DNA from: Escherichia phage vB_EcoP-CHD5UKE1
DNA: 64,000 nt
Strand: one strand, 5' to 3'
Sequence record: NC_070989.1
Every line of letters begins with the position of its first letter. Within the stretch, counting starts at the first letter, position 1. The translations under genes were made by a program, and so were the position numbers. Of this stretch, positions 31,423 through 50,129 are shown piece by piece. The notes beneath the pieces were generated by a model. That model was not told where the DNA came from. It worked only from the letters and a program-made list of their open reading frames with translations, and did not search any database.

Positions 31423-32265
31423 TTACCAAGATTTATCTAACCATGTCCAGTCGAACAGGTCTTCCGGAGTCTGACCAACAAAGAGAAGCCGAGCATTCTC
31501 AAGCATCTTCTCTTCATCTTCAGTATCGAACTTCTTATAATATTCCATTCGTACTATATGATACATGGTCCACTTATCTGTAACACCAGCTAGTAATTTA
31601 GCTGCTGCCTTCTTCCCTACTCCTTGACGTCGAAGCTGAAGCTTACCCCCCCACATGACTTCTTCACGTTCCCCACATCCGGGGATATTATCCGTACCAT
31701 CTCCAATCAACATTTGATAGAAGAAGTTTTGCCATGAAACTAAATCAGATACATAGTGAGGAGGAACCTCTTTTTGTCTTTCTCCACAAGCCCAACGGTA
31801 ATGCCATCCGGGAGTTATCAACAAATCTTTGTCTCTAGTACAGATGATAGTGTTCTTATCTCTACGTTGCCTTTCAGCTAGTGCATCATCAGCTTCTCTA
31901 CCAAAGACCTCAATGTATTCGTACTTGGCTTTAATGTAATCACCAACGTTTTGCCAGTGAAAAGGTCTTTCTCCGGGAGGTCTGTTTGCCTTGTAGTCTT
32001 GTTGCTTAGCAACATCGAAACGGAAGTTACCACCTTCGCTGAAGTAGAATACAACCTTACTACAACCCGAGCGAGCTATGATTGTATCGATCTTGTACTG
32101 AAGTCGTTCAATCATGAAATTGTAATCAACTGGAACACGTCCTGTGTCAAGGAAGGGATGCTCCTGAGTAAGAGCACCTACTTCATACCGAAGAACGTCA
32201 GCGTCCACTATAGCAACTTCAGGGAGCTTAACCTCTTCCATAAATATCATCCTGAGCTTGAGCAA
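31423..32265 (-). CDS. 5'-3' exonuclease / flap endonuclease, T7 gp6-like (280 aa)
   Basis: Motifs DYKANR, EADDA, CTRDKDL, IGDGTDNIPG parallel T7 exonuclease conserved blocks. Confidence 0.82.
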   Translation of the reverse strand: MLKLRMIFMEEVKLPEVAIVDADVLRYEVGALTQEHPFLDTGRVPVDYNFMIERLQYKIDTIIARSGCSKVVFYFSEGGNFRFDVAKQQDYKANRPPGERPFHWQNVGDYIKAKYEYIEVFGREADDALAERQRRDKNTIICTRDKDLLITPGWHYRWACGERQKEVPPHYVSDLVSWQNFFYQMLIGDGTDNIPGCGEREEVMWGGKLQLRRQGVGKKAAAKLLAGVTDKWTMYHIVRMEYYKKFDTEDEEKMLENARLLFVGQTPEDLFDWTWLDKSW

Positions 32266-39163: not shown

Positions 39164-41008
39164 TTAGTGTGTATGCATCCAGTTAAGTCCAATCTGACAA
39201 TCAGATGCCAGAGGACATTCCATATTCAGATACTCGCCAGCTTTCTTAACACAAAGCTCGGTGTGCTCTTTGAGTTTCTGTACATCATTACGGTTTACTG
39301 AGAATTGACCTTCATCGTGCATATCAATTACCTTAGCACAATGAACCTTATCTTTCTCAATCCACTTGTTAAGGAACATCATAGCATATTTCATAACAAC
39401 AGCACCAGCACATTGCAGGAGTGTGTTAAGGGCTTTATGAACCATAACCTTACCAGTGGCATCCCGTCTCATTGTAATCTTACGACCATCAACTCCAATC
39501 AAGTATCCTTGAGCAGCTTTCTCTGTCATACGATCAATGAGGATTGCAATACATGGATTCTCTGCCAAGAAACGTGCTCGCATCACTGAACCTTCGTCAG
39601 CCCCACCACCTACAATTGAACCAAGCTTAGCGTCGCCAGCGCCATAGTTAAATGCATAGATAAACGTCTTAGCGTTGTCACGAGTAGGAAGACCAGCAAG
39701 TTTCTGGTTGTGGGAGTGGATATCACCTTCAAGGAGAATATCACGATACATAATAGCAGAAGCTAAACCACGTTCTGCCAGAGCTTTCTTAGCTGGGTTG
39801 TTCTCTTCGATTGCCTCAGCAAGCATATCCCTACACTCTTTAATGAGGTAGTGAGCGAGCATACGAAGTTCAAGTCCAGAACCATCATACCCTAAGAATA
39901 CTTCTTTACCAGCGGGTATGTAATATTTGTAAGCGCCTACAGGTTTGTCTTTCTTCCCCGGCTTACCTTTCTCGTAAATTACGTTAGTACCTTTTCGTAT
40001 ATAACAACCATCAGGAACAACGTTAGTAATAACGAAAGGACGAGAGTGATCACTGTCTGAGTTATAGTCAGACTCAAACAAACTGCGACACTCGTGACCA
40101 AACAGACCACGGGAGGGAATATTAACCACGATACGATGTTTGAATCGAAAAGTCGGCGTAGCGCAGCTGTTAGCTTCTGCCGAAAGTTTACCATCTTCGC
40201 GTTCCTTTGCTATGAGTCCACTGATAAGACCTAGCCTGTGAGCCGCTACAACGCGTCTCTTAAGCAAACTTCCGACACTCCCTAGCTCACCCCCTAACCC
40301 TTCTTCAAGAGTCTCCTCGAGGTTTGTAGGAGCTGTAGGCCACTTGTTTGATGTGGCTAGTGCTTTCTTAATCTCATCAAACGTTACAGGATTACGGCGA
40401 TTAGGGTTCAACCCCAAACCAAATACGTAAGCCTTCATGTAATTCTTAGTCTTAAACCTGAAATGCTTTTCTAAGAACTTCTTAATATCAGCGTCAACCA
40501 TCTCGGCTGTCTGCTTCTGCTTAGCATTGCCTCGCATCCAAGCAGTATACCATGCTTGGTATGTTCCATACTTTCTCATATCTTTCTTAATTTCGAAAGT
40601 ATTCCAAGGCTTCTTAGATACGTTAAACTCTGGAGGAAGAAAGCCCTCATCCATAAGAGCTTCTTTAACTCGTGCATCTTTCGATGGGTCAAAGTCTACG
40701 TATTCGACACAGGTGAAAGCTCCACCAATATCTTCTCTCTTCAGCCCAACCCTATCACAATAGGCTTGAGGCCACTTCTGTAAAGCTCCAGACTTCTTAA
40801 ATGGCTTCATGTAAGTAGAGCCATCTAATCTCATCTTAGGTAAGAGAGGAATCAACTCTCTGTCAATATTAACAATAATCTCTTTAAGGAGGTGAACATA
40901 CCACCGAGCATTTCTTCGGTTGAAACTCACTCCGTGCTTTGCTTGCTTAGAGATTATATCAGCGACAGTCATCTCTGTCAAAAATGGAAGAGCGTCCGGG
41001 TTGCTCAC
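39164..41008 (-). CDS. DNA polymerase, family A polymerase domain (614 aa), T7 gp5-like, lacking its own 3'-5' exonuclease domain
   Basis: Motif A YDGSGLELR, motif B RDNAKTFIYAFNYGAG, motif C IDMHDEG. Confidence 0.85.
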   Translation of the reverse strand: MSNPDALPFLTEMTVADIISKQAKHGVSFNRRNARWYVHLLKEIIVNIDRELIPLLPKMRLDGSTYMKPFKKSGALQKWPQAYCDRVGLKREDIGGAFTCVEYVDFDPSKDARVKEALMDEGFLPPEFNVSKKPWNTFEIKKDMRKYGTYQAWYTAWMRGNAKQKQTAEMVDADIKKFLEKHFRFKTKNYMKAYVFGLGLNPNRRNPVTFDEIKKALATSNKWPTAPTNLEETLEEGLGGELGSVGSLLKRRVVAAHRLGLISGLIAKEREDGKLSAEANSCATPTFRFKHRIVVNIPSRGLFGHECRSLFESDYNSDSDHSRPFVITNVVPDGCYIRKGTNVIYEKGKPGKKDKPVGAYKYYIPAGKEVFLGYDGSGLELRMLAHYLIKECRDMLAEAIEENNPAKKALAERGLASAIMYRDILLEGDIHSHNQKLAGLPTRDNAKTFIYAFNYGAGDAKLGSIVGGGADEGSVMRARFLAENPCIAILIDRMTEKAAQGYLIGVDGRKITMRRDATGKVMVHKALNTLLQCAGAVVMKYAMMFLNKWIEKDKVHCAKVIDMHDEGQFSVNRNDVQKLKEHTELCVKKAGEYLNMECPLASDCQIGLNWMHTH

Positions 41009-41024
41009 TTTATACTCCTTTAAA

Positions 41025-41447
41025 TTATTGGTAAAGTAAATCTGTAAATGCTTGGTTATCTTCTACTACATTCAACATGGTAGCTTCATCACTATAAGCC
41101 CTAACCGTCCCGTTGACAACTGTCCAAGGAGGAGGTGGAGGTGGTGTATGGTTAGCCCTAGCTTCACGAGGTTGCTCTCGTACTAAATGAGCCACAACCC
41201 TTTGGTTAGCGACTTCTTCTCTTTCTCTAATAGCTCTCTGGATATAGGCCAGCTTCATGCCCCAAGCTTCTTCAAACTCTTGAGGATGCTTATCACTGAT
41301 AACCACATACTGACGTTCAGAAATACCAGAGCGAATCTCTGATAATAATTCATGGAACAAATCTAGTTCGTGCTCAGTGAGATTCATTTCAATATCATCC
41401 CACTTTAGAACTAGGAAACGGTTTTGGTGTCTAGCTGGTAATGGCAT
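41025..41447 (-). CDS. hypothetical protein (140 aa)
   Basis: ORF with Pro-rich stretch TPPPPPPWT. Confidence 0.45.
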   Translation of the reverse strand: MPLPARHQNRFLVLKWDDIEMNLTEHELDLFHELLSEIRSGISERQYVVISDKHPQEFEEAWGMKLAYIQRAIREREEVANQRVVAHLVREQPREARANHTPPPPPPWTVVNGTVRAYSDEATMLNVVEDNQAFTDLLYQ

Positions 41448-41450
41448 AAC

Positions 41451-41735
41451 TCAACCTCTTGGGAATGGCATCAAAAATTCCACAGCAGATTTAATTTCAC
41501 TATTGATTCTTGAATCACGATAAGAGATAAACTTACCTTTGCTATCACGTAACATCACATGAGTTCTGGCTGTTTTGTGAGGGAGTAGTGTGACACTAGT
41601 TGGGATAGTATCAATCCCTACAGCGTATTTGTCAATAGTCTTACTTTCAGCCAACAGATAAGACCAAGTACGCGGTTTCTGCTCCGGGCGGTTGGGGTAT
41701 GTGTCTCGAATCTGTACCATAGCTAACTTATTCAT
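41451..41735 (-). CDS. hypothetical protein (94 aa), paralog of 41737-41991
   Basis: Shared C-terminal pattern KTARTxVxLRxxxGKFISY...PFPxG. Confidence 0.45.
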   Translation of the reverse strand: MNKLAMVQIRDTYPNRPEQKPRTWSYLLAESKTIDKYAVGIDTIPTSVTLLPHKTARTHVMLRDSKGKFISYRDSRINSEIKSAVEFLMPFPRG

Positions 41736-41736
41736 A

Positions 41737-41991
41737 TTAAACTCCTTTAGGGAATGGAATGAGATTTTCTACTGCAACACGGAAAGATTTTTCTACGTTC
41801 TTATTCTTATAAGAGATAAATTTTCCATCAGCTCCGCGAAGGAGTACGTTAGTGCGAGCTGTTTTTGGGTTAATCTCAATCATCCGTTCGATGATCTTGT
41901 TTGATTTGTTGTGGTGGTTAGTGAAAGTCCACTTAACAACCTTGCCATCTCTGGTTACATCAAAAATATTTACGATTTTTACAATAGACAT
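41737..41991 (-). CDS. hypothetical protein (84 aa), paralog of 41451-41735
   Basis: Same conserved C-terminal motif as the neighbour. Confidence 0.45.
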   Translation of the reverse strand: MSIVKIVNIFDVTRDGKVVKWTFTNHHNKSNKIIERMIEINPKTARTNVLLRGADGKFISYKNKNVEKSFRVAVENLIPFPKGV

Positions 41992-42025
41992 ACTTATTAC
42001 CTAGGAAGTTTAGTTTGGTTTATAT

Positions 42026-42054
42026 AAAAGAAAAGGCCACCCATTTGGGTAGCC
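42026..42054 (-). terminator. rho-independent terminator on minus strand (GGCUACCC-AAAU-GGGUGGCC + U-run)
   Basis: 8-bp stem with one G-U, followed by UUUUCUUUU. Confidence 0.65.
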
Positions 42055-42059
42055 TTATA

Positions 42060-42377
42060 TTACGATGAGCTTAAAGCTCCTTTGCGTGCTCCAGCTGCTT
42101 TTCCAGCTCGATCACCACTTTTGCCGCCGTTTGAACGGTTTGAGCTGACTGATTCAACACATAAGTTGCTTGACGCATTAGAGCCTCCAGACTTGACAGC
42201 TCGTTTGTGTCCAACATCTTTACCTCTGACAGCAGCTTTTCCATCGCGCTTTTCAACGATGCGACGTGCACGGTGGCGCTGAGCATCTCCGCTCTTGCTC
42301 CCAACGCCTGTTTCACCACGGGCAATTGCGGTACGTCTTTCTTGTGCATAATCTCTCTTTCCTACATGGTCTGCCAT
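42060..42377 (-). CDS. small basic Gly/Ser/Arg/Lys-rich protein (105 aa), locally GC-rich
   Basis: Strong AAGGAG RBS 6 nt before ATG 42377; terminator immediately downstream; a second long ORF (42071-42349) overlaps in another frame. Confidence 0.45.
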   Translation of the reverse strand: MADHVGKRDYAQERRTAIARGETGVGSKSGDAQRHRARRIVEKRDGKAAVRGKDVGHKRAVKSGGSNASSNLCVESVSSNRSNGGKSGDRAGKAAGARKGALSSS

Positions 42378-42431
42378 TTAAAACTCCTTAATATATCAGT
42401 GTACACTAAGGAGTATACATTATGGATGCTA

Positions 42432-42620
42432 TTAAAACTCTGCTAAGTATTTAATATCAGAGGCATATACCTCATCAAAGGAAATAACTTCTCCGTTGTA
42501 AAGAAGTTCTATCTTCAGTATACCAGAGCATTTGGTGTCTTTAGAGTCGACTCTGATAGAGAGCTTATCAACTATCTGAGCTTTAATCTCTTCTATTACT
42601 AACTCTTGAGTATTACTCAC
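42432..42620 (-). CDS. hypothetical protein (about 62 aa from GTG 42620; track ORF 42432-42680)
   Basis: GGGAGG RBS before GTG; starts just after stop of the upstream gene. Confidence 0.35.
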   Translation of the reverse strand: MSNTQELVIEEIKAQIVDKLSIRVDSKDTKCSGILKIELLYNGEVISFDEVYASDIKYLAEF

Positions 42621-42798
42621 TCCACCCTCCCGGTGGTACAAAATCATCAGGAACGTCAATGATAGTAGGTTCTCCATCATTCATGCAGGTGTCTTCATTG
42701 AACTCTTCACACTCAAAACATGCTCGTTCGATATTTTTGTAGAAGTCGATGGTTGCTGAACCATCACCACAATCTCGGATAACTAAAGAGACTTTCAT
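42613..42798 (-). CDS. small Cys-rich protein (61 aa)
   Basis: CGDGS...CFEC...C pattern; start overlaps PhoH stop. Confidence 0.4.
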   Translation of the reverse strand: MKVSLVIRDCGDGSATIDFYKNIERACFECEEFNEDTCMNDGEPTIIDVPDDFVPPGGWSE

Positions 42799-43538
42799 TT
42801 ATCTTGTTCCTTTTCCATAGCTTTAACAATGGCTTTACAGAAACCAGAACGAACAATATCATCCGACTCACCGTCTACAATCTCAGCGAACTCATACAGA
42901 TCATGTTCATCAATAAAGTTGGTAGCCCAAGTAAGACCACTCTCACGACCACGCATATCATGCTGGTTAGTATCACCCATGCAGAACAGCTGAGAGGTTT
43001 CTCCCAATCGAGTCATGATTGAGAAGGCTTCATCTTTAGTGGTGTTCTGGAACTCATCAACAATAACAATAGCATCATTGAAAGAACGACCACGGAGATA
43101 TTCCAGAGGTACGAACTCAATGTTGCTATTACCAAGTTGGCATTCATAGAACCCCTTACCATATCGCTGAGTGATAACATCAATGATAGGCATCAGGTAT
43201 GGTTCAAACTTCTCACGCATTCCTCCCGGAAGTAACCCAAGAGAGTTGCCCATGCCAACCGAAGGGCGACTCAGAATGATCTTCTGAATCTTACCACTCT
43301 TCAGTGCATCAATAACCGTGGAAGTGATTACAAAGGTCTTACCACAGCCCGCAGGAGCGTCTGTGAACACAACTTGTTTAGTCTTAATAGCATTGAGTAG
43401 CTCAGACTGAAACTGGTTCTGAGGGACTACAGGCTTTGCTAAAACCACCTCTTCATACTCTCGCTTACCTTTACGAGTAACAAGTGCTTCCCGACGAAGG
43501 TCTTTCCGTGATTCTTTCCGTGATTGACGACGACTCAT
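42795..43538 (-). CDS. phoH: PhoH-like ATPase (247 aa)
   Basis: Walker A APAGCGKTF, LLPGGMREKFEPYLMPIID, IVDEFQN blocks characteristic of PhoH. Confidence 0.75.
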   Translation of the reverse strand: MSRRQSRKESRKDLRREALVTRKGKREYEEVVLAKPVVPQNQFQSELLNAIKTKQVVFTDAPAGCGKTFVITSTVIDALKSGKIQKIILSRPSVGMGNSLGLLPGGMREKFEPYLMPIIDVITQRYGKGFYECQLGNSNIEFVPLEYLRGRSFNDAIVIVDEFQNTTKDEAFSIMTRLGETSQLFCMGDTNQHDMRGRESGLTWATNFIDEHDLYEFAEIVDGESDDIVRSGFCKAIVKAMEKEQDK

Positions 43539-43720
43539 TTACGCTCTCCAATTTCTTCGTAATGACACTCAGTAGTTAAGCAGTCTTTACAGATTGCTGT
43601 ATAAACCCTGACGTTAGTAAATCGTTTATTCTTCCCTTTGGTTGGAGAGCCTTTGGCAAGCTCTCTGATAACCTTGTTACTTAAATGAAGGTTTGTTCCT
43701 TCACATCTAGAGCACTTCAT
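43535..43720 (-). CDS. small zinc-ribbon protein (61 aa)
   Basis: CxxC...CxxC pairs (CSRCEG / CKDCLTTEC). Confidence 0.4.
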   Translation of the reverse strand: MKCSRCEGTNLHLSNKVIRELAKGSPTKGKNKRFTNVRVYTAICKDCLTTECHYEEIGERK

Positions 43721-44036
43721 GGTTCATATCTTTATGAATCCTGTAAACAGCTGTCGCCATACAAGCAACAGCCTCATTATGTGGGAGGTGCATTCCTGTA
43801 GAACCATCCCAATCTTTGAACTCAGCGTCAAAGACTCCGGTAGGCTCTGGATACAGAGCTTGCAGCTCCACTAGATCATTAGCAACTTGTTGCCATTTAT
43901 CATCAGACCAGATAGGGTCATCCAACCAGTAATACAAATAGGAATGGATGATCAATTGCCTTCTATGCCGATTGATTACTTCAGCTGGACTTATCTCACT
44001 TCCATTTGAAGTCCTAAATGTATTACCGTCGATCAT
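43707..44036 (-). CDS. hypothetical protein (109 aa) resembling the N-terminal Ia domain of NAD-dependent DNA ligase
   Basis: Pattern LIIHSYLYYWLDDPIWSDDKWQQVANDLVELQALYPE parallels LigA N-terminal LxxHxxxYYxxDxPxxxDxEYDxLxxxLxxLE. Confidence 0.35.
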   Translation of the reverse strand: MIDGNTFRTSNGSEISPAEVINRHRRQLIIHSYLYYWLDDPIWSDDKWQQVANDLVELQALYPEPTGVFDAEFKDWDGSTGMHLPHNEAVACMATAVYRIHKDMNHEVL

Positions 44037-44239
44037 TATGAAAATTTCCGTTCTGTTAAAAAGTATATAACTTCACCATCCGGAGACCGAACTTTCTCTC
44101 CGTTTACCAACTTCTTGGCGTCTTCATATGAAGAACAATCTAAAGCAGGGTTATCAGGTGTTGGTTTCCTTAGGAAATATTTCCAAGTCCAACGCTCTCC
44201 GTCATCGTCTTGGCAGTCAAGAGTCCACAAAGTTTTCAT
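44036..44239 (-). CDS. hypothetical protein (67 aa)
   Basis: ORF, ATGA overlap with upstream gene. Confidence 0.4.
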   Translation of the reverse strand: MKTLWTLDCQDDDGERWTWKYFLRKPTPDNPALDCSSYEDAKKLVNGEKVRSPDGEVIYFLTERKFS

Positions 44240-44401
44240 TTCACAACCTTAAATTTGAATGTTGTTGGGTGATAATAGTGCAACCTGTTAATGGTGTGCT
44301 TTGTTTCAAGATATATCCTACAAGAGTGACACATGACATGAGACAGACCAGTCACAGAGTTGGGTTTGAAGTTGGCGATAGGCTTCTCTTTCTTACAGAA
44401 G

Positions 44402-44421
<20 letters not shown>
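44236..44421 (-). CDS. small zinc-finger protein (about 61 aa from internal ATG; track ORF 44236-44484)
   Basis: CSFCKK...CHSC motif. Confidence 0.4.
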
Positions 44422-44746
<325 letters not shown>

Positions 44747-44895
44747 CAGAAATTCCTGCTAATCCTCTGAGTTGTGGGAACAGCAATATTCACATACTCC
44801 ACAACAAGGGCAAATTTCTACACTTGGGTCGTATGCATCATCAACTGTCATCCCACACTTAGTGCAGAACACATCATCATCTTCCTCTTCCAATA

Positions 44896-45552
44896 TTAAC
44901 TCTCCAAAGTTTTCTTCAGGGCTGCCCATGAGATTGGGTAAAGTTTAGCCATCTCTTCATCCAGAGATTGAGCAAACACTCGAACTTCGTATTGAGCGTG
45001 AGAGGAGAGTCGCTGACGACACAACTCAAACCAGCCATATAAAGAACCAGTCCACACCCACTCAGTGATCATTCCCTGAGGAAGAACAAATCGGGCTTGC
45101 TCTGGTGCAACGAATTCGATTAACTTGTCATATGCTGCTAGAGAAGCTTCATATGCATCGTTAATCAACATTAATGCTTCAGCTCGTTCTCCATCGATGA
45201 GTTGAACCCCTGAACCTGCATGGAGGTCCGAAGGTCTCGCAAAAATCTCTTTAGGGATGAAGACTTCAACTGCTCCATCTTTATACCGCCGGGACATTTC
45301 GTTCCACGAGAATCCAACCTGATGCTTGCCCAGCTGTCTCGCAATTGCGATAGGTGCTTTGCATCGGAAACTGACTTGCGGGTGTCGGAATGGGGTAACA
45401 TGCTTCTCTCTTGCGAGAAAGTTGATGAGACGTTCATCACGTTCATTTAAATCACCTTCACGGGTTACGCCAAAGGAAACTCGAGCTGCGTTTACTACGC
45501 TACGATCACTTCCCATAGCTTCGATTAATGTTGCTTGTAGTTGTTCATTCAT
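44896..45552 (-). CDS. thyX: flavin-dependent thymidylate synthase ThyX-like (218 aa)
   Basis: ThyX signature region GKHQVGFSWNEMSRRY (canonical RHR-x7-S with K-H-Q in place of R-H-R) and C-terminal ThyX-like block. Confidence 0.7.
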   Translation of the reverse strand: MNEQLQATLIEAMGSDRSVVNAARVSFGVTREGDLNERDERLINFLAREKHVTPFRHPQVSFRCKAPIAIARQLGKHQVGFSWNEMSRRYKDGAVEVFIPKEIFARPSDLHAGSGVQLIDGERAEALMLINDAYEASLAAYDKLIEFVAPEQARFVLPQGMITEWVWTGSLYGWFELCRQRLSSHAQYEVRVFAQSLDEEMAKLYPISWAALKKTLES

Positions 45553-45567
45553 CCGTGAATATCCTTA

Positions 45568-45843
45568 TTACTTATTTCTCAGGGCTGTGTCCAAAAATGC
45601 TTTCAGGTTTGCTTCAGTCTGCATACCGGAGAGGCTGTAGTGCGCACCACTGTTACGGTCAGGCACAACGAAAGCAGGGATACTTCGTACACCATACTTA
45701 ACAGCTTGTTCACGACCATCACCTTCAAGGATGTTAATCTCTTCCACTTCTACATCAAACTCCTTAACAACCTTCTCAAAGATAGGAGCCATTGCTTTAC
45801 ATGGAGCACACTGATCACTATAAAACTTAATTACTTTAGACAT
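45568..45843 (-). CDS. thioredoxin-like protein (91 aa)
   Basis: Active-site-like CAPCK in thioredoxin-type context. Confidence 0.7.
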   Translation of the reverse strand: MSKVIKFYSDQCAPCKAMAPIFEKVVKEFDVEVEEINILEGDGREQAVKYGVRSIPAFVVPDRNSGAHYSLSGMQTEANLKAFLDTALRNK

Positions 45844-45851
45844 GTAAATCC

Positions 45852-46031
45852 TTATGCGGTCAGGAGGTGAAGCAGGAACGGGATAACAACAGCTACGATA
45901 ACCATGATAGTTGATGCTGTTTGAATCTCACCTTTCTTATCAGGAGTTTCTTCAATAAGCTTACTAGAAGCCCAATAAATACCACCACCAATAAAGATAG
46001 CCCAAATACCCCATACGATTGCTGATAACAT
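45852..46031 (-). CDS. small membrane protein with two predicted TM helices (59 aa), holin-like candidate
   Basis: MLSAIVWGIWAIFIGGGIYW...IMVIVAVVIPFLL hydrophobic segments; AAGGA RBS; an alternative overlapping frame exists (45893-46165). Confidence 0.35.
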   Translation of the reverse strand: MLSAIVWGIWAIFIGGGIYWASSKLIEETPDKKGEIQTASTIMVIVAVVIPFLLHLLTA

Positions 46032-46091
46032 ATATCTATATCCTTATAAATAAGTTCGCCCCACCTCGGGTTAGGAGACAGGGCGGAGGTT

Positions 46092-46691
46092 TTAGTAAGA
46101 CACGTCACCACTTGAATGGGACATGTTGCTCTTGACGAAGTAGCAATACTTGCCAAGACCTTCATTAATTTCTTGAAGCATACTCTGATCGACAGGGTAG
46201 GTGGCTAAATCACCATCAAACTCATCCATCTTCTCAATAATACACATCAAGGTCATGCACATATCAGAGAGCATACCGTCCATGTCTAGATCAGCATTAC
46301 CCTCTGAGAACCAAGCATGAGAGAGATAGTTAGCTGCTGTAGCATCCACTTTAACGCAGTGGTAACGCATACGTTCAGCGATACGATCTCCTACCTGTCG
46401 TGCGTAATCTTCCAGCTCATCAAACATACCATGAACACCCTGAAATCCTGCACCAGAGACGTTCCAGTGGTAGTTTTTAGCTTTGATATGCAATAGTTCC
46501 ATGTTAGCTTGTAAGCAGCTCAGGATGTGTTCTAGGCTGTTTGCACTAATCATACCTTGCATCGTTTCAAGGCGAGAGATTGAAAGCTCAGACCGGTCTA
46601 ACATACTATAACTGTCACGACCAATCTCAGGTAAATCAAAGACATTCTTATGCATTTGGGTTTTCTCCATCAAGTTCAACTGAGTTAGCAA
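46092..46691 (-). CDS. Dps/ferritin-like protein (199 aa)
   Basis: Dps-like block LHIKAKNYHWNVSGAGFQGVHGMFDELEDYARQVGDRIAERM. Confidence 0.6.
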   Translation of the reverse strand: MLTQLNLMEKTQMHKNVFDLPEIGRDSYSMLDRSELSISRLETMQGMISANSLEHILSCLQANMELLHIKAKNYHWNVSGAGFQGVHGMFDELEDYARQVGDRIAERMRYHCVKVDATAANYLSHAWFSEGNADLDMDGMLSDMCMTLMCIIEKMDEFDGDLATYPVDQSMLQEINEGLGKYCYFVKSNMSHSSGDVSY

Positions 46692-46977
46692 CGTTACGTG
46701 AAATATTATCCATTACCTGCTGGGTAATTACGATGCAGTTCTGTGGGTCTACTGACTTAGAACGCCCCATTTCAGGGTCATACACCTTAACTCGCTTAGC
46801 AGTTGAACCTGTGACCTGAAGAACCTTCAACAGATACCCCTGATTACCAATAGACCAAGCAACAACATCACGATTCTTGATAAAGCGACCAAGCATATCA
46901 CGATGATAAAACTGTTGCATCACCTTGGATTTTGTAATCTCTTCAGTGGGCGGGGCCACTTTACTCAAATCTAACAT
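46648..46977 (-). CDS. hypothetical protein (109 aa)
   Basis: ORF in operon. Confidence 0.45.
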   Translation of the reverse strand: MLDLSKVAPPTEEITKSKVMQQFYHRDMLGRFIKNRDVVAWSIGNQGYLLKVLQVTGSTAKRVKVYDPEMGRSKSVDPQNCIVITQQVMDNISRNVANSVELDGENPNA

Positions 46978-47049
46978 AACTCTCTCCTGTAAAATACAAA
47001 TTCTTATTGTACTCTATATACATTTGAGAGTTATCATATCTACTACCAA

Positions 47050-47259
47050 TCAGTAGTAAATTACTTTAGACATAAAAGAACCAGTGTTAGGGTCTTCATA
47101 CCAGCGATGTATGTCAGCGCTTTTTACTATTGTGCCCAGAGTCTTCAACTGTTTCTTAGCAATACGAGCCTCTTTGCGAGTGTCAAACAATTTGATGTTA
47201 TCTTTTCTCATGTGTTGCTCAAGATCCCAAACAACATGAATAGCCCACATCTTTTTCAT
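47050..47259 (-). CDS. small basic protein (69 aa), member of a tandem three-gene paralog family
   Basis: Shares size, basic character and C-terminal KVxYY-type ending with the two upstream ORFs. Confidence 0.45.
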   Translation of the reverse strand: MKKMWAIHVVWDLEQHMRKDNIKLFDTRKEARIAKKQLKTLGTIVKSADIHRWYEDPNTGSFMSKVIYY

Positions 47260-47468
47260 TAGTAATGTACCTTTCCGCTGATATAAACACGACCAGAAGA
47301 ATACTCCTTGGCCTTATGAATACTGATGCTCTTAGTTAAGTCTACATTGAACATAGACTTTTTAAAATCTCGAGCCTGTTGACGAGTGGGTAGTGCAGTC
47401 ATAGTCATACCACCTGATGCCCACTTAATCTTTGCTAACCAAAATTGTCTCATAGTGATCGGTCTCAT
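47259..47468 (-). CDS. small basic protein (69 aa), paralog family member
   Basis: Tandem paralog; 1-nt overlap with neighbours. Confidence 0.45.
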   Translation of the reverse strand: MRPITMRQFWLAKIKWASGGMTMTALPTRQQARDFKKSMFNVDLTKSISIHKAKEYSSGRVYISGKVHY

Positions 47469-47665
47469 TAATAATAAACCTTACTGTTAACACAAAAAGC
47501 ACCTTCACTATTCACGATAGCTTTTCCTAGTGTAACCTTATTAAGTCTAAAAGTAGATTTGTATTGATTTTTGACCCTACGTGCGTGCTCTCGAGTCTTA
47601 ACAAAATCTACAGCTACTAACTCTCCAGTCGTGTTATCATGTACACGAACAATCCACTTTTTCAT
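47468..47665 (-). CDS. small basic protein (65 aa), paralog family member
   Basis: Tandem paralog ending SKVYY. Confidence 0.45.
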   Translation of the reverse strand: MKKWIVRVHDNTTGELVAVDFVKTREHARRVKNQYKSTFRLNKVTLGKAIVNSEGAFCVNSKVYY

Positions 47666-48199
47666 TTACACACCTTTAGATGCAACTACACCTTCAGAGT
47701 TATTATAACGACCCTTCACTGCATAGGAGTGCTCCCCTGCATGAGAGTGCTCAAACATGACCATCTGACCAACACGCATACCAGCACGAACTCGTAAGCT
47801 GTGGTGCTTGGTTACGTTATGGAATTCAAATGTCAGCTTACTGCTATTAAATCCTGCATCTGCCCAACCTGCGTGAAGGTGGTTCAAACCACAACGAGCC
47901 ATAGATGAACGCAGAACAAACAGACTTGAGATGTTGTCTGGAAGATTAAACTCCTCCATAGAGTGAGCCAAGAAGAACTGACCCGGAGTGATAACCAAAC
48001 CCTCTTCAGGAATCTTTACTTCCTTCCACTGAAGATTCTCTTTCGCATCAATATCAACGATGCCATCAGCCTGTTCTTCAACAAGGATAGTATCACCAAT
48101 ACGGATATCCACACTAGCAGCGTTAACATACTTATGCTCCGCATCCAGATAGCCATTGTCAATTACATCATGCAGTTCAACACTTCCTAGTAAACTCAT
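47666..48199 (-). CDS. dCTP deaminase/dUTPase-family protein (177 aa)
   Basis: Size and ASVDIRIGD block resembling the Dcd/dUTPase beta-barrel family. Confidence 0.55.
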   Translation of the reverse strand: MSLLGSVELHDVIDNGYLDAEHKYVNAASVDIRIGDTILVEEQADGIVDIDAKENLQWKEVKIPEEGLVITPGQFFLAHSMEEFNLPDNISSLFVLRSSMARCGLNHLHAGWADAGFNSSKLTFEFHNVTKHHSLRVRAGMRVGQMVMFEHSHAGEHSYAVKGRYNNSEGVVASKGV

Positions 48200-48208
48200 T
48201 CTTATTCC

Positions 48209-49570
48209 TTAGTTATTTGTTTCCATGTCAAAAGAGATTCCACGACCCGCTTCATCGGCAAACCGAACTGTTCGGGTTTGAGGTTCTAATACTTCAGGGT
48301 TGTTAGCAACAAACCGATCAGCGAGACTACGACTGACAGTCTCAGCTAATTCACCATGAGAAGGGATATCAAGACTACCTACCACATCTTGGGCCACACC
48401 TTCATCAGTCCACACAGCCCTAACAGGTGCGTTGATATCACCAACAGCAAAACCCTGACCAGAGAACTGACGTGCGCTAACAGTTAAACCGTTTGGTCGA
48501 CCACGAGAAGGTCTAGCCATCCATCGCTCCATAGAATCACTTGTAATACCAAGAGCTTCTTCAAAAGATGTTCTACGAGTAGGGCTTACTCTTCGTGACT
48601 CTTGTGCTCGACGCATTGCAGGGGCTACAAACACCCCTTCAATTGCATTGTGTCGGTTAGGTTCCTCTTCTCGACCAAGCAGATCACCACCCGTGTTAGT
48701 CGTTAAATTTGTCAACCCCTCAGACCAATACGCATGAATCTGACCAGAACCGTGAAGACTAGACATAATCTGAATCTCTTCATAAGGGATTCCAAAGAAT
48801 CGACTCATGTCTCGGTTGACACAATATAGAGCACTTGTTGTATCTTCAATAAGAGAAACCTGACCTAATCCATTGACTAGATGACTAACTGGCTGAGGTG
48901 TGGGAAGATATCGAGTTTGGGCCATGTATTGATGTGCAACTGCTGGAGAGGAAAATCTCAACACTTGTGAGTTAGGCCACTTCTTGTGAACATACCTGAT
49001 TTCACGACTAGAGACAACCACTGGACAAGGGGAAGTCATAGCCAAATATCCGTGAGAAGTCATGAATAAGTTGTCAAGAGTCATCGCACCACGGCACATC
49101 ATGGGAAAATTATCCAATACCTCTTCAATAGAAGTAGGATAATTAAACATGAATTGGATACGAACCCCATTCCACTGAAACTCAATAATATCAGTGAATG
49201 TTAATTGAGAACCCCCAGCATAGGATTCGTTTGTAGCTTCAGCAAGAAGTGATGCATATTCAATATCTTGTGACTCTAGCCATTCCTTCACATTACTTTC
49301 AATCTCCCGTCCAAGCTCTTGCCAACGATCAGTTGGGATGAAAGTGTTTTGAGTTCTTGGTGTTTGTCCTCTGACAATAAAGATATCAATGTCATGTGGA
49401 GCTATGTTATTAAGGACAGCATCACGAACAGCCCCACCAGTAATGATGGGACAGATACCATCTGGAATCAAGTTGTTATTAATCAACTGTTCAATGAAGT
49501 GACGACCAACAGTGATATCAGGTTGTTGAGCAACCTTATCTTCAATTTGGTTAATCGGGATAACAATCAT
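48209..49570 (-). CDS. nucleotidyltransferase with CCA-adding/poly(A)-polymerase-type head domain (about 453 aa from ATG 49570)
   Basis: GGAVRD followed by DIDIF (class II tRNA nucleotidyltransferase/PAP head signature GGxVRD...DxD); start 1 nt after the stop of the exonuclease gene. Confidence 0.55.
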   Translation of the reverse strand: MIVIPINQIEDKVAQQPDITVGRHFIEQLINNNLIPDGICPIITGGAVRDAVLNNIAPHDIDIFIVRGQTPRTQNTFIPTDRWQELGREIESNVKEWLESQDIEYASLLAEATNESYAGGSQLTFTDIIEFQWNGVRIQFMFNYPTSIEEVLDNFPMMCRGAMTLDNLFMTSHGYLAMTSPCPVVVSSREIRYVHKKWPNSQVLRFSSPAVAHQYMAQTRYLPTPQPVSHLVNGLGQVSLIEDTTSALYCVNRDMSRFFGIPYEEIQIMSSLHGSGQIHAYWSEGLTNLTTNTGGDLLGREEEPNRHNAIEGVFVAPAMRRAQESRRVSPTRRTSFEEALGITSDSMERWMARPSRGRPNGLTVSARQFSGQGFAVGDINAPVRAVWTDEGVAQDVVGSLDIPSHGELAETVSRSLADRFVANNPEVLEPQTRTVRFADEAGRGISFDMETNN

Positions 49571-49571
49571 T

Positions 49572-50129
49572 TTACATTTTCCAATATAATGAAGGTGGGT
49601 CGTAAGGGTCAAATCCCGTGAGTTCACACAAGAAAAGATAAACCTTAACAGTTAAGTTAACGTCCTGTTCACAATAAGTAAACATATCTTCAGTGAAAGC
49701 ATCCCATGCTTCCTCTTGCTCACCATAATCGCCCTTAAGCTCTCCTAAGAACTCACCCCACTGCTTCAAACCATGACCTCTTGGGCCACGTCTAGGGTCG
49801 CCTTTCGGATACTCAGGACTGTCACCAATACGGTCAGGTTTAAGATATCGACTAAGACATAAAGTGTCAAAGACGTTAAAATTATATTTAATCAAAGAGG
49901 GATACATCTTTTTCAGAGCAGGTAAGTCGAAGTCAATAATATTATGACCCACTAGTACATCTGCTTCTGTAAGTTTACGAATCCCATCTTCAATTTGGTG
50001 AGGCCGATAGCCCCACCTTTCACCAGTTTCAACATCAAAGATATAAATACACCATACTTTAGTTATGTCATCGTACAGTGCATTACTCTCGATATCGAAT
50101 GCAAACACTTTCTTCTTTTTCTTTACCAC
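49572..50129 (-). CDS. DnaQ-like DEDDh 3'-5' exonuclease (185 aa), separately encoded proofreading-type domain
   Basis: Exo I FDIES, Exo [11 protein letters not shown], Exo III YCEQD motifs. Confidence 0.75.

What the first reader, a model, noticed from the sequence alone, without database searches (positions are those of the whole stretch)
39164..50129. Split family-A DNA polymerase: polymerase and 3'-5' exonuclease encoded as separate genes 8.5 kb apart
The polymerase gene (39164-41008) carries motifs A, B and C but no DEDD exonuclease motifs, while a standalone DnaQ-like DEDDh exonuclease (49572-50129) is encoded next to the primase-helicase. This implies trans-acting proofreading.
Basis: partly seen in the sequence, partly recalled or inferred. 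Interest (0 to 1): 0.4.

Follow-up and report, generated by a model that had tools for sequence, protein, structure and literature searches.

The report
Split phage DNA polymerase, already known
This phiEco32-like E. coli phage encodes its T7-type DNA polymerase as two genes, a proofreading exonuclease and an exonuclease-less polymerase 8.6 kb apart; this is real but typical of the phage group, already annotated and already described in print.

Summary
The window is a Kuravirus (phiEco32-like) E. coli podophage; the polymerase gene is 99.9% identical to phage Bas91. The gene-level observation holds. ORF 39164-41008 (-) is a 614-aa family A polymerase with motifs A, B and C and no trace of an exonuclease domain. 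ORF 49572-50129 (-) is a 185-aa 3'-5' exonuclease whose start overlaps the stop of the primase-helicase gene. The spacer is 8,563 bp with about 20 genes. One detail is wrong: the exonuclease is the Pol-A/T7 type (DEDDy, Y152-x3-D156, Pfam PF01612), not DEDDh. Joined end to end, the two proteins are collinear with T7 gp5, and the break falls at T7 residues 201/202, in the exo-pol linker. This is gene fission, not recruitment of a foreign DnaQ, and not an intron, intein or assembly artefact. The same split and gene order occur in Crifsvirus (7.7 kb spacer) and LUZ24-like Bruynoghevirus (1.7 kb). Public records already annotate a "DNA polymerase exonuclease subunit", and at least two papers state the split. 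Proofreading by a non-covalently bound subunit is the likely mechanism but is untested. Verdict: real, ordinary for this lineage, already known; low interest.

The parts
50123..51913 (-). T7 gp4-like primase-helicase (596 aa). Its C-terminus is acidic and ends in Trp. Its stop codon overlaps the exo start codon.
   Evidence: Pfam DnaB_C E 9.9e-11 and Toprim_2. phrog_239 DNA primase/helicase E 1e-175. Sequence. Overlap GTGGTAA.
49572..50129 (-). Stand-alone 3'-5' proofreading exonuclease subunit (185 aa), DEDDy type, homologous to the N-terminal domain of T7 gp5.
   Evidence: PF01612, 35.3 bits. phrog_38876/403 'DNA polymerase exonuclease subunit'. T7 gp5 residues 3-178, E 1.5e-12. Invariant D12, E14, N63, D68, D156; Y152 and H119 at least 90% conserved. 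All 65 database homologues are stand-alone, 101-247 aa.
41009..49571 (-). 8,563-bp spacer with about 20 co-oriented genes. They include a nucleotidyltransferase (48209-49570), dCTP deaminase (47666-48199), a ferritin/Dps-like DNA-binding protein (46092-46691), thioredoxin (45568-45843), ThyX (44896-45552), a stand-alone Nlig-Ia domain (43707-44036), PhoH (42795-43538) and small ORFs of unknown function.
   Evidence: Pfam and PHROG scans. Bas91 annotation lists 20 CDS between the two genes. No exo or pol remnant in any frame. No intron in Rfam.
39164..41008 (-). Exonuclease-less family A (T7-like) DNA polymerase catalytic subunit (614 aa). It begins at the equivalent of T7 gp5 residue 202. It has a shortened thioredoxin-binding region and a roughly 85-90 aa helical insertion (residues about 133-222).
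   Evidence: PF00476, 82.7 bits. phrog_17 positions 836-1233. T7 gp5 E 6e-33. AlphaFold2 model pLDDT 90.3. Foldseek top hits are all T7 DNA polymerase, E 2e-26. Collinearity. Insertion census.
45568..45843 (-). Phage thioredoxin (91 aa, CAPC active site). Candidate processivity partner of the polymerase; this role is inferred, not shown.
   Evidence: PF00085 E 3.5e-13. Sequence. The hypothesis was raised for the related phage Privateer in PMC7881722.
31423..32265 (-). Separately encoded 5'-3' exonuclease (FEN-like). This is the third Pol I-type activity encoded as its own gene.
   Evidence: PF02739 E 5.8e-7, but 29.8 bits is below the 34.3 cut-off. The ORF at the corresponding position in Bas91 is annotated 'exonuclease'. 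PMC9965538 lists a separate 5'-3' exonuclease in this phage group.

Best explanation
This is the standard replication module of phiEco32-like (Kuravirus) phages. An ancestral T7-gp5-like family A polymerase gene underwent fission in the linker between its 3'-5' exonuclease and polymerase domains. The exonuclease half stayed just downstream of the primase-helicase gene, with overlapping stop and start codons that suggest translational coupling. About 8.6 kb of nucleotide-metabolism and small genes accumulated between it and the polymerase half. Both halves remain intact: the exonuclease keeps every DEDDy catalytic residue and the polymerase keeps motifs A, B and C. Most likely the 185-aa exonuclease docks non-covalently on the 614-aa polymerase where the T7 exo domain sits. 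That would rebuild a two-subunit proofreading replicase working with the gp4-like primase-helicase. The steps shown here are the identity, integrity and collinearity of the two halves, the conservation of the split and the absence of a joining mechanism. The steps inferred are the physical association and the proofreading function.
For: - Identity: the window is a Kuravirus. The pol gene is 99.9% identical to phage Bas91. The 12.75-kb pol-to-primase module matches 121 phage records, 60 of them over at least 80% of its length.
- Two halves of one enzyme: exo and pol map to adjacent stretches of one PHROG profile. Both have T7 gp5 as best solved relative. The concatenation aligns collinearly with T7 gp5 and fused homologues, with the break at T7 201/202; the LUZ24-like break is at 204/205.
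- No exo remnant in pol or anywhere else in the window.
- The exo catalytic residues are invariant across the stand-alone family.
- Co-divergence of exo / pol / primase-helicase identity: 56/49/58% to Crifsvirus A24, 39/44/46% to Bruynoghevirus 'otherone', 39/37/31% to T7.
- Conserved gene order (amidotransferase, ATP-grasp, gamma-glutamyl cyclotransferase, primase-helicase, exo, spacer, pol) with spacers of 1.66 kb, 7.7 kb and 8.6 kb.
- The nearest roughly 110 pol homologues are all exo-less. All 65 exo homologues are stand-alone.
- For a different, adjacent-gene exo/pol fission in cyanophage S-SBP1, a published AlphaFold2 complex superposes on an unsplit relative (PMC10201439).
Against: - No experiment or computation here shows that the two proteins bind each other. 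My only complex attempt, a single-sequence AlphaFold2 run on the concatenation, gave pLDDT 34 and is uninformative.
- The exo gene overlaps the helicase gene, not the polymerase gene, so its stoichiometry need not match the polymerase.
- The lineage-specific helical insertion in pol shows that the enzyme has diverged from T7 in ways not yet understood.
Confidence: 0.75

Rival explanations
1. The exonuclease is a free, dissociable enzyme that is not a stable polymerase subunit. It would edit 3' ends distributively after the polymerase dissociates, or serve another role such as recombination, end processing or host DNA degradation. The exo-less polymerase would replicate alone.
For: The genes are 8.6 kb apart and are not translationally coupled to each other. 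No interaction data exist. Exo-less family A polymerases can be functional on their own (established knowledge, for example Taq Pol I).
Against: The exo is the specific orthologue of the T7 gp5 exo domain and has co-diverged with pol. Its conserved C-terminal tail (GFDPxxPP) aligns with the T7 inter-domain linker. PMC10201439 notes that family A polymerases are known to need the exo domain, even an inactive one, for stability.
Confidence: 0.17
2. The exonuclease is tethered mainly to the primase-helicase, to whose gene it appears translationally coupled. Proofreading would then be a property of the helicase-associated replisome and not of a pol-exo heterodimer.
For: The exo start overlaps the primase-helicase stop in Kuravirus (7 nt), Crifsvirus (4 nt) and Bruynoghevirus (38 nt).
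Against: The adjacency is simply the ancestral T7 order, gene 4 then gene 5. No helicase-binding element was identified in the exo, which aligns end to end with the T7 exo domain and has no extra segment.
Confidence: 0.06
3. The split is not real at the protein level. The two parts would be joined by a split intein or RNA splicing, or the split would be an assembly or frameshift artefact or a pseudogene.
For: Group I introns do interrupt this polymerase gene in relatives (L005:5354-5617, RF00028, 102 bits; LUZ24 intron noted in PMC3517423). Split inteins join DnaE halves in cyanobacteria (established knowledge).
Against: - The exo ends and the pol begins exactly at the linker, with no spare residues for intein halves.
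- Rfam finds no intron in the window.
- About 20 protein-coding genes lie between the two parts.
- The same arrangement is present in 121 independently sequenced phage records.
Confidence: 0.02

Closest known systems
phiEco32 / Kuravirus (Gordonclarkvirinae) replication module, e.g. phages SU10, YF01, Bas91
   Same: Essentially identical. The pol gene is 98-99.9% identical at the DNA level and the 12.75-kb module has the same gene order. The exo is annotated 'DNA polymerase exonuclease subunit'. The separation of pol from its 3'-5' and 5'-3' exonucleases is stated to be common to the whole group in PMC9965538 and is attributed to phiEco32 in PMC3517423.
   Different: Nothing of substance. Compared with Bas91 the window has about 0.5 kb more in the spacer (coordinates).
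LUZ24-like Pseudomonas phages (Bruynoghevirus): 'DNA polymerase part I' and 'part II'
   Same: Same fission point (T7 204/205 against 201/202). Same flanking gene order, with exo overlapping the primase-helicase gene. Pol is 44% and exo 39% identical. They share part of the helical insertion in pol (60 aa).
   Different: The spacer is only 1.66 kb with six small ORFs. The pol is 545 aa instead of 614. No thioredoxin is annotated in the 10.4-kb stretch examined. LUZ24 itself carries an intron in the pol gene (PMC3517423).
Bacteriophage T7 gene 5 DNA polymerase (with E. coli thioredoxin and the gp4 primase-helicase)
   Same: Best solved relative of both halves. Same motifs, including the motif B tyrosine and the exo-site histidine (H119, equivalent to T7 His123). 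The primase-helicase gene lies upstream, and its product has an acidic C-terminal tail ending in an aromatic residue.
   Different: T7 gp5 is a single 704-aa polypeptide. Here the thioredoxin-binding region is shorter, a roughly 85-90 aa helical insertion follows it, and the phage carries its own thioredoxin gene.
S-SBP1-like cyanopodovirus split PolA (Czernecki et al. 2023, PMC10201439)
   Same: Fission of a T7-like PolA into exo and pol genes. The association is predicted to be preserved. I found 17 such adjacent splits among 70 IMG/VR loci.
   Different: There the genes are adjacent or overlapping and arose by a recent +1 frameshift. Here the split is old, being shared by at least three phage genera, and the genes are separated by 8.6 kb. 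That paper called its case the first in PolAs, but PMC3517423 (2012) had already noted the split in the LUZ24 group and cites Savalia et al. 2008 for phiEco32.
E. coli Pol III alpha-epsilon (DnaE-DnaQ)
   Same: Polymerase and proofreading exonuclease are separate polypeptides that act as a complex. This is an analogy of mechanism.
   Different: A different polymerase family (C) and a different exonuclease subtype (DEDDh). The window exonuclease has no H-x4-D motif and is not a DnaQ orthologue.

Membership tests
Family A DNA polymerase (T7-like cluster) | Pfam PF00476 above the gathering score | tested here: met
   82.7 bits against a cut-off of 34.3, residues 361-611.
Family A DNA polymerase (T7-like cluster) | Catalytic motifs A (DxSxxELR), B (RxxxKxxxxxxxYG) and C (HDE) | tested here: met
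   D375GSGLELR, R443DNAKTFIYAFNYG and H564DE. These residues are invariant in the 41-sequence alignment A2.
Family A DNA polymerase (T7-like cluster) | Fold similar to T7 gp5 | tested here: met
   AlphaFold2 model pLDDT 90.3. Foldseek ranks 1-27 are all T7 DNA polymerase; best E 2.1e-26, TM 0.57.
Family A DNA polymerase (T7-like cluster) | 3'-5' exonuclease domain in the same polypeptide (typical of T7 gp5, not required for family membership) | tested here: not met
   The exo-family HMM gives 0.9 bits on pol with filters off, against 112 bits on T7 gp5. Pol residue 1 aligns with T7 residue 202.
DEDDy 3'-5' exonuclease of Pol A type (PF01612) | Exo I (DxE), Exo II (Nx4D) and Exo III (Yx3D) motifs; Pfam above the gathering score | tested here: met
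   D12-I-E14, N63-IIDF-D68 and Y152-CEQ-D156. Invariant or at least 90% conserved. PF01612 at 35.3 bits against 23.6.
DEDDh DnaQ/epsilon-type exonuclease | Exo III motif H-x4-D; match to the RNase_T/DnaQ profile | tested here: not met
   No H-x4-D in the protein. The only Pfam hits at E<=0.01 are PF01612 and PF13482.
Kuravirus / LUZ24-type split exo + pol replicase | Stand-alone exo immediately downstream of, and overlapping, the primase-helicase gene; exo-less pol further downstream on the same strand; break in the exo-pol linker | tested here: met
   The same layout occurs in Bas91, Crifsvirus A24 and Bruynoghevirus otherone.
Kuravirus / LUZ24-type split exo + pol replicase | The two proteins form a functional proofreading complex | not testable with these tools
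   The only attempt, a concatenated single-sequence AlphaFold2 run, gave pLDDT 34. I found no biochemical data for this group in the searched literature.
Split-intein (protein trans-splicing) polymerase | Intein N- and C-fragments at the broken ends | tested here: not met
   Exo and pol abut at T7 201/202 with no unaligned extra sequence. No intein domain in Pfam.
Intron-interrupted polymerase gene | Group I or II intron between the coding parts | tested here: not met
   Rfam finds no match in the window. The same run detected a group I intron (102 bits) in the related contig L005, which serves as a positive control.

The most novel reading that the evidence does not exclude
The fission may be more than a neutral cut of a T7-like enzyme and may go with a changed replisome architecture. 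Every exo-less polymerase sampled from this lineage (35 of 35) carries a confidently folded 60-90 aa helical insertion beside the shortened thioredoxin-binding region. None of the 6 fused relatives has it. In addition, the exo gene's start overlaps the primase-helicase gene's stop in all three genera examined. The insertion could be a new docking or processivity module, for the exo subunit, the phage thioredoxin or the helicase tail. Exo dosage or recruitment could be regulated separately from polymerisation, which would give tunable proofreading.
Probability: 0.12. Interest if true: 0.5.

Novelty: already known. Interest (0 to 1): 0.15.

Why it matters
Little is new here. The arrangement is the norm for more than 100 sequenced Kuravirus-like phages, is annotated as such and is stated in the literature. 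Its remaining value is as a model system. It is a natural, ancient two-gene family A replicase in an easily grown E. coli phage (the BASEL collection holds Bas90 and Bas91). It could be used to ask how a Pol A exonuclease domain works as a separate subunit and whether proofreading can be dosed independently. That biochemistry does not appear to have been done.

Tried and rejected
- **Cryptic exo domain in pol: rejected.** The exo-family HMM with filters off gives 0.9 bits. The only D-x-E, at residue 49, lies in a predicted helix.
- **Second exo copy or remnant next to pol: rejected.** A six-frame HMM scan finds one exo and one pol.
- **DnaQ/DEDDh identity: rejected**.
- **Split intein: rejected.** There are no spare residues at the break.
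- **Intron: rejected** for the window. An intron does explain the 437-460 aa 'truncated' pol homologues, at least for P0079.
- **Exo+pol complex model: failed.** I submitted the concatenation without an alignment.
- **Savalia et al. 2008 (PMC2587145): not available.** The paper is not held in the library. What it says about phiEco32 is known to me only through PMC3517423.
- **Biochemistry of a split Pol A from these phages: nothing found** in the literature searches.
- **gp2.5-like SSB with an acidic tail: not found.** The 'DNA binding protein' at 46092-46691 is ferritin/Dps-like.
Full report
**What the window is.** The polymerase ORF is 99.9% identical in DNA to Escherichia phage LorandFenyves_Bas91. 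It is 98-99% identical to vB_EcoP_SU10, YF01 and other phiEco32-like (Kuravirus) podophages. The 12.75-kb stretch from the polymerase to the primase-helicase matches 121 phage records, 60 of them over at least 80% of its length. All genes of the region lie on the minus strand.

**Checking the observation: the polymerase.**
- ORF 39164-41008 (-) encodes 614 aa and has an AGGAG site 7 nt before its GTG start.
- It carries motif A (D375GSGLELR), motif B (R443DNAKTFIYAFNYG) and motif C (H564DE).
- Its only Pfam hit is PF00476, at 82.7 bits against a cut-off of 34.3.
- Its best solved relative is T7 gp5, E 6e-33.
- An AlphaFold2 model built from 41 homologues has mean pLDDT 90.3. The 27 best Foldseek matches in the PDB are all T7 DNA polymerase, best E 2e-26.

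**Checking the observation: the exonuclease.**
- ORF 49572-50129 (-) encodes 185 aa.
- It hits PF01612 (DNA_pol_A_exo1, 35.3 bits against 23.6) and PHROGs named 'DNA polymerase exonuclease subunit'.
- It aligns with T7 gp5 residues 3-178, E 1.5e-12.
- Its GTG start overlaps the stop codon of the primase-helicase ORF 50123-51913 (GTGGTAA).
- The two genes are separated by 8,563 bp.

I built an HMM of the stand-alone exonuclease family without T7 and ran it with all filters off. It scores 112 bits on T7 gp5 residues 2-193 and 155-159 bits on the N-termini of fused homologues. It scores only 0.9 bits on the window polymerase, inside the palm. A six-frame scan of the whole window finds exactly one exo and one pol, and no remnants. 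The polymerase therefore truly lacks an exonuclease domain.

**One detail is wrong.** The exonuclease is not DEDDh. Exo III reads Y152-C-E-Q-D156, and the protein has no H-x4-D. In an alignment of 20 homologues, D12, E14, N63, D68 and D156 are invariant and Y152 is at least 90% conserved. It is the DEDDy, Pol-A-type domain. A conserved H119 aligns with T7 gp5 His123. From my own knowledge, that residue is needed for T7 exonuclease activity.

**What it is.**
- The two ORFs map to consecutive stretches of a single PHROG polymerase profile: exo to positions 667-826 and pol to 836-1233 of phrog_17.
- A MAFFT alignment of the exo+pol concatenation with T7 gp5 and six fused homologues is collinear. 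The last exo residue pairs with T7 residue 201 and the first pol residue with T7 residue 202, in the inter-domain linker. The LUZ24-like pair breaks at 204/205.
- No residues are left over for intein halves. Rfam finds no intron in the window, although the same run found a group I intron in a related contig.
- This is therefore fission of a T7-gp5-like gene. It is neither recruitment of an unrelated DnaQ nor a gene joined after transcription or translation.

**How old and how widespread the split is.**
- All 65 database homologues of the exo are stand-alone proteins of 101-247 aa.
- The nearest roughly 110 pol homologues are exo-less. Fused forms appear only at 43-45% identity over two thirds of the query.
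- Gene order is conserved: amidotransferase, ATP-grasp enzyme, gamma-glutamyl cyclotransferase, primase-helicase, exo, spacer, pol. It holds in Bruynoghevirus 'otherone' (spacer 1.66 kb, genes annotated 'DNA polymerase part I/II'), Crifsvirus A24 (7.7 kb) and Kuravirus (8.6 kb).
- Identity of exo / pol / primase-helicase to the window falls in parallel: 56/49/58% for A24, 39/44/46% for otherone and 39/37/31% for T7. This fits vertical co-inheritance of one replication module.
- Among 80 IMG/VR loci with a related exo, 53 have a fused polymerase and 17 have a split one with adjacent genes. The two closest loci (L007, L008) have a stand-alone exo with no pol within 4.6 kb and 2.2 kb downstream.

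**Mechanism.** Shown here:
- Both halves are intact and conserved.
- They are the two halves of a T7-type enzyme.
- No joining mechanism exists.

Inferred:
- The exo binds the pol non-covalently at the position of the T7 exo domain and proofreads within that complex.

Indirect support:
- PMC10201439 notes that family A polymerases are known to need the exo domain for stability.
- For the independent S-SBP1 cyanophage fission, the same paper reports an AlphaFold2 complex that superposes on an unsplit relative.
- The conserved C-terminal tail of the stand-alone exo (GFDPxxPP) aligns with the T7 linker.

My own attempt at a complex model failed. It was a single-sequence run on the concatenation and gave pLDDT 34. 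The rivals are a free exonuclease, a helicase-tethered exonuclease, and an artefact or spliced product. The first two cannot be excluded without biochemistry. The third is effectively excluded.

**Comparison with what is known.**
- The public annotation of Bas91 already reads 'DNA polymerase' and 'DNA polymerase exonuclease subunit'.
- PMC9965538 says that in YF01 the polymerase and the 5'-3' and 3'-5' exonuclease subunits are separately encoded. [quoted passage not shown]
- PMC3517423 (2012) notes that in all LUZ24-group phages polymerase and proofreading exonuclease are separate genes, and that a similar organisation was reported for phiEco32, citing Savalia et al. 2008. I could not read that 2008 paper.
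- PMC10201439 (2023) describes an adjacent-gene fission in T7-like cyanophages as the first in PolAs. The Kuravirus and LUZ24 cases predate that claim.
- I found no biochemical study of any of these split enzymes.

**Verdict.** The finding is real and correctly read at the gene level, apart from the DEDDh label. It is the ordinary, published and annotated state of this phage lineage. Novelty: already known. Interest: low (0.15).

**Residual novelty.** A confidently modelled 60-90 aa helical insertion sits next to the shortened thioredoxin-binding region. It is present in 35 of 35 exo-less homologues sampled and absent in 6 of 6 fused ones. The overlap of the exo start with the helicase stop is also conserved. 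Either might point to a changed replisome architecture. These are single-lineage correlations and remain speculative.

Noticed in passing
window 39164-41008 (-), pol residues ~133-222 (about window 40343-40612): A helical insertion of about 85-90 aa relative to T7 gp5, modelled with pLDDT 87-96. It follows a thioredoxin-binding region that is about 30 aa shorter than in T7. It is present (60-90 aa) in all 35 exo-less homologues sampled and absent (0-5 aa) in all 6 fused homologues. Its function is unknown.
   Followed up: partly
window 43707-44036 (-): A 109-aa protein consisting only of the Ia (NAD+-binding) domain of NAD-dependent DNA ligase (PF22745, E 6.8e-35). Related phages annotate it as 'DNA ligase', although it has no adenylation or OB domain. 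It might modulate the host LigA.
   Followed up: no
window 45568-45843 (-): Phage-encoded thioredoxin (91 aa, CAPC active site) inside the exo-pol spacer. Crifsvirus A24 also has one. It has been proposed as a T7-style processivity factor for the related phage Privateer (PMC7881722), but this is untested.
   Followed up: partly
window 48209-49627 (-): A nucleotidyltransferase gene lies immediately after exo (phrog_12715, E 4e-263; weak Pol-beta/poly(A)-polymerase head hit, PF01743, E 0.0024). The real start is probably the ATG at 49570 (453 aa, as in Bas91). The C-terminal third has no family hit at the thresholds used. The gene is absent at this position in Crifsvirus A24 and in LUZ24-like phages.
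   Followed up: no
window 50123-50230 (-), C-terminus of the primase-helicase: The C-terminal tail is acidic and ends in Trp (...[11 protein letters not shown]...GASPW*). It resembles the acidic, Phe-terminated tail of T7 gp4 that contacts the polymerase (from my own knowledge of T7). The exo GTG start overlaps the stop codon (GTGGTAA).
   Followed up: no
L005:5354-5617 (ENA metagenome contig, Kuravirus-like, 77 kb): A group I intron (Rfam RF00028, 102 bits) interrupts the polymerase gene at motif B, giving ORFs of 454 and 139 aa. This probably explains the many 437-460 aa 'truncated' polymerase homologues and the C-terminal-fragment PHROGs. The window's gene is uninterrupted.
   Followed up: yes
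window 31423-32265 (-): A separately encoded 5'-3' exonuclease (FEN-like; PF02739, E 5.8e-7, below the gathering score). All three Pol I-type activities are therefore separate genes in this phage, as PMC9965538 notes.
   Followed up: partly
window 46092-46691 (-): A protein annotated 'DNA binding protein' in relatives gives a ferritin/Dps-like hit (PF00210, E 2.8e-7). It is not an SSB of the T7 gp2.5 type. I did not identify an obvious SSB in the spacer.
   Followed up: no
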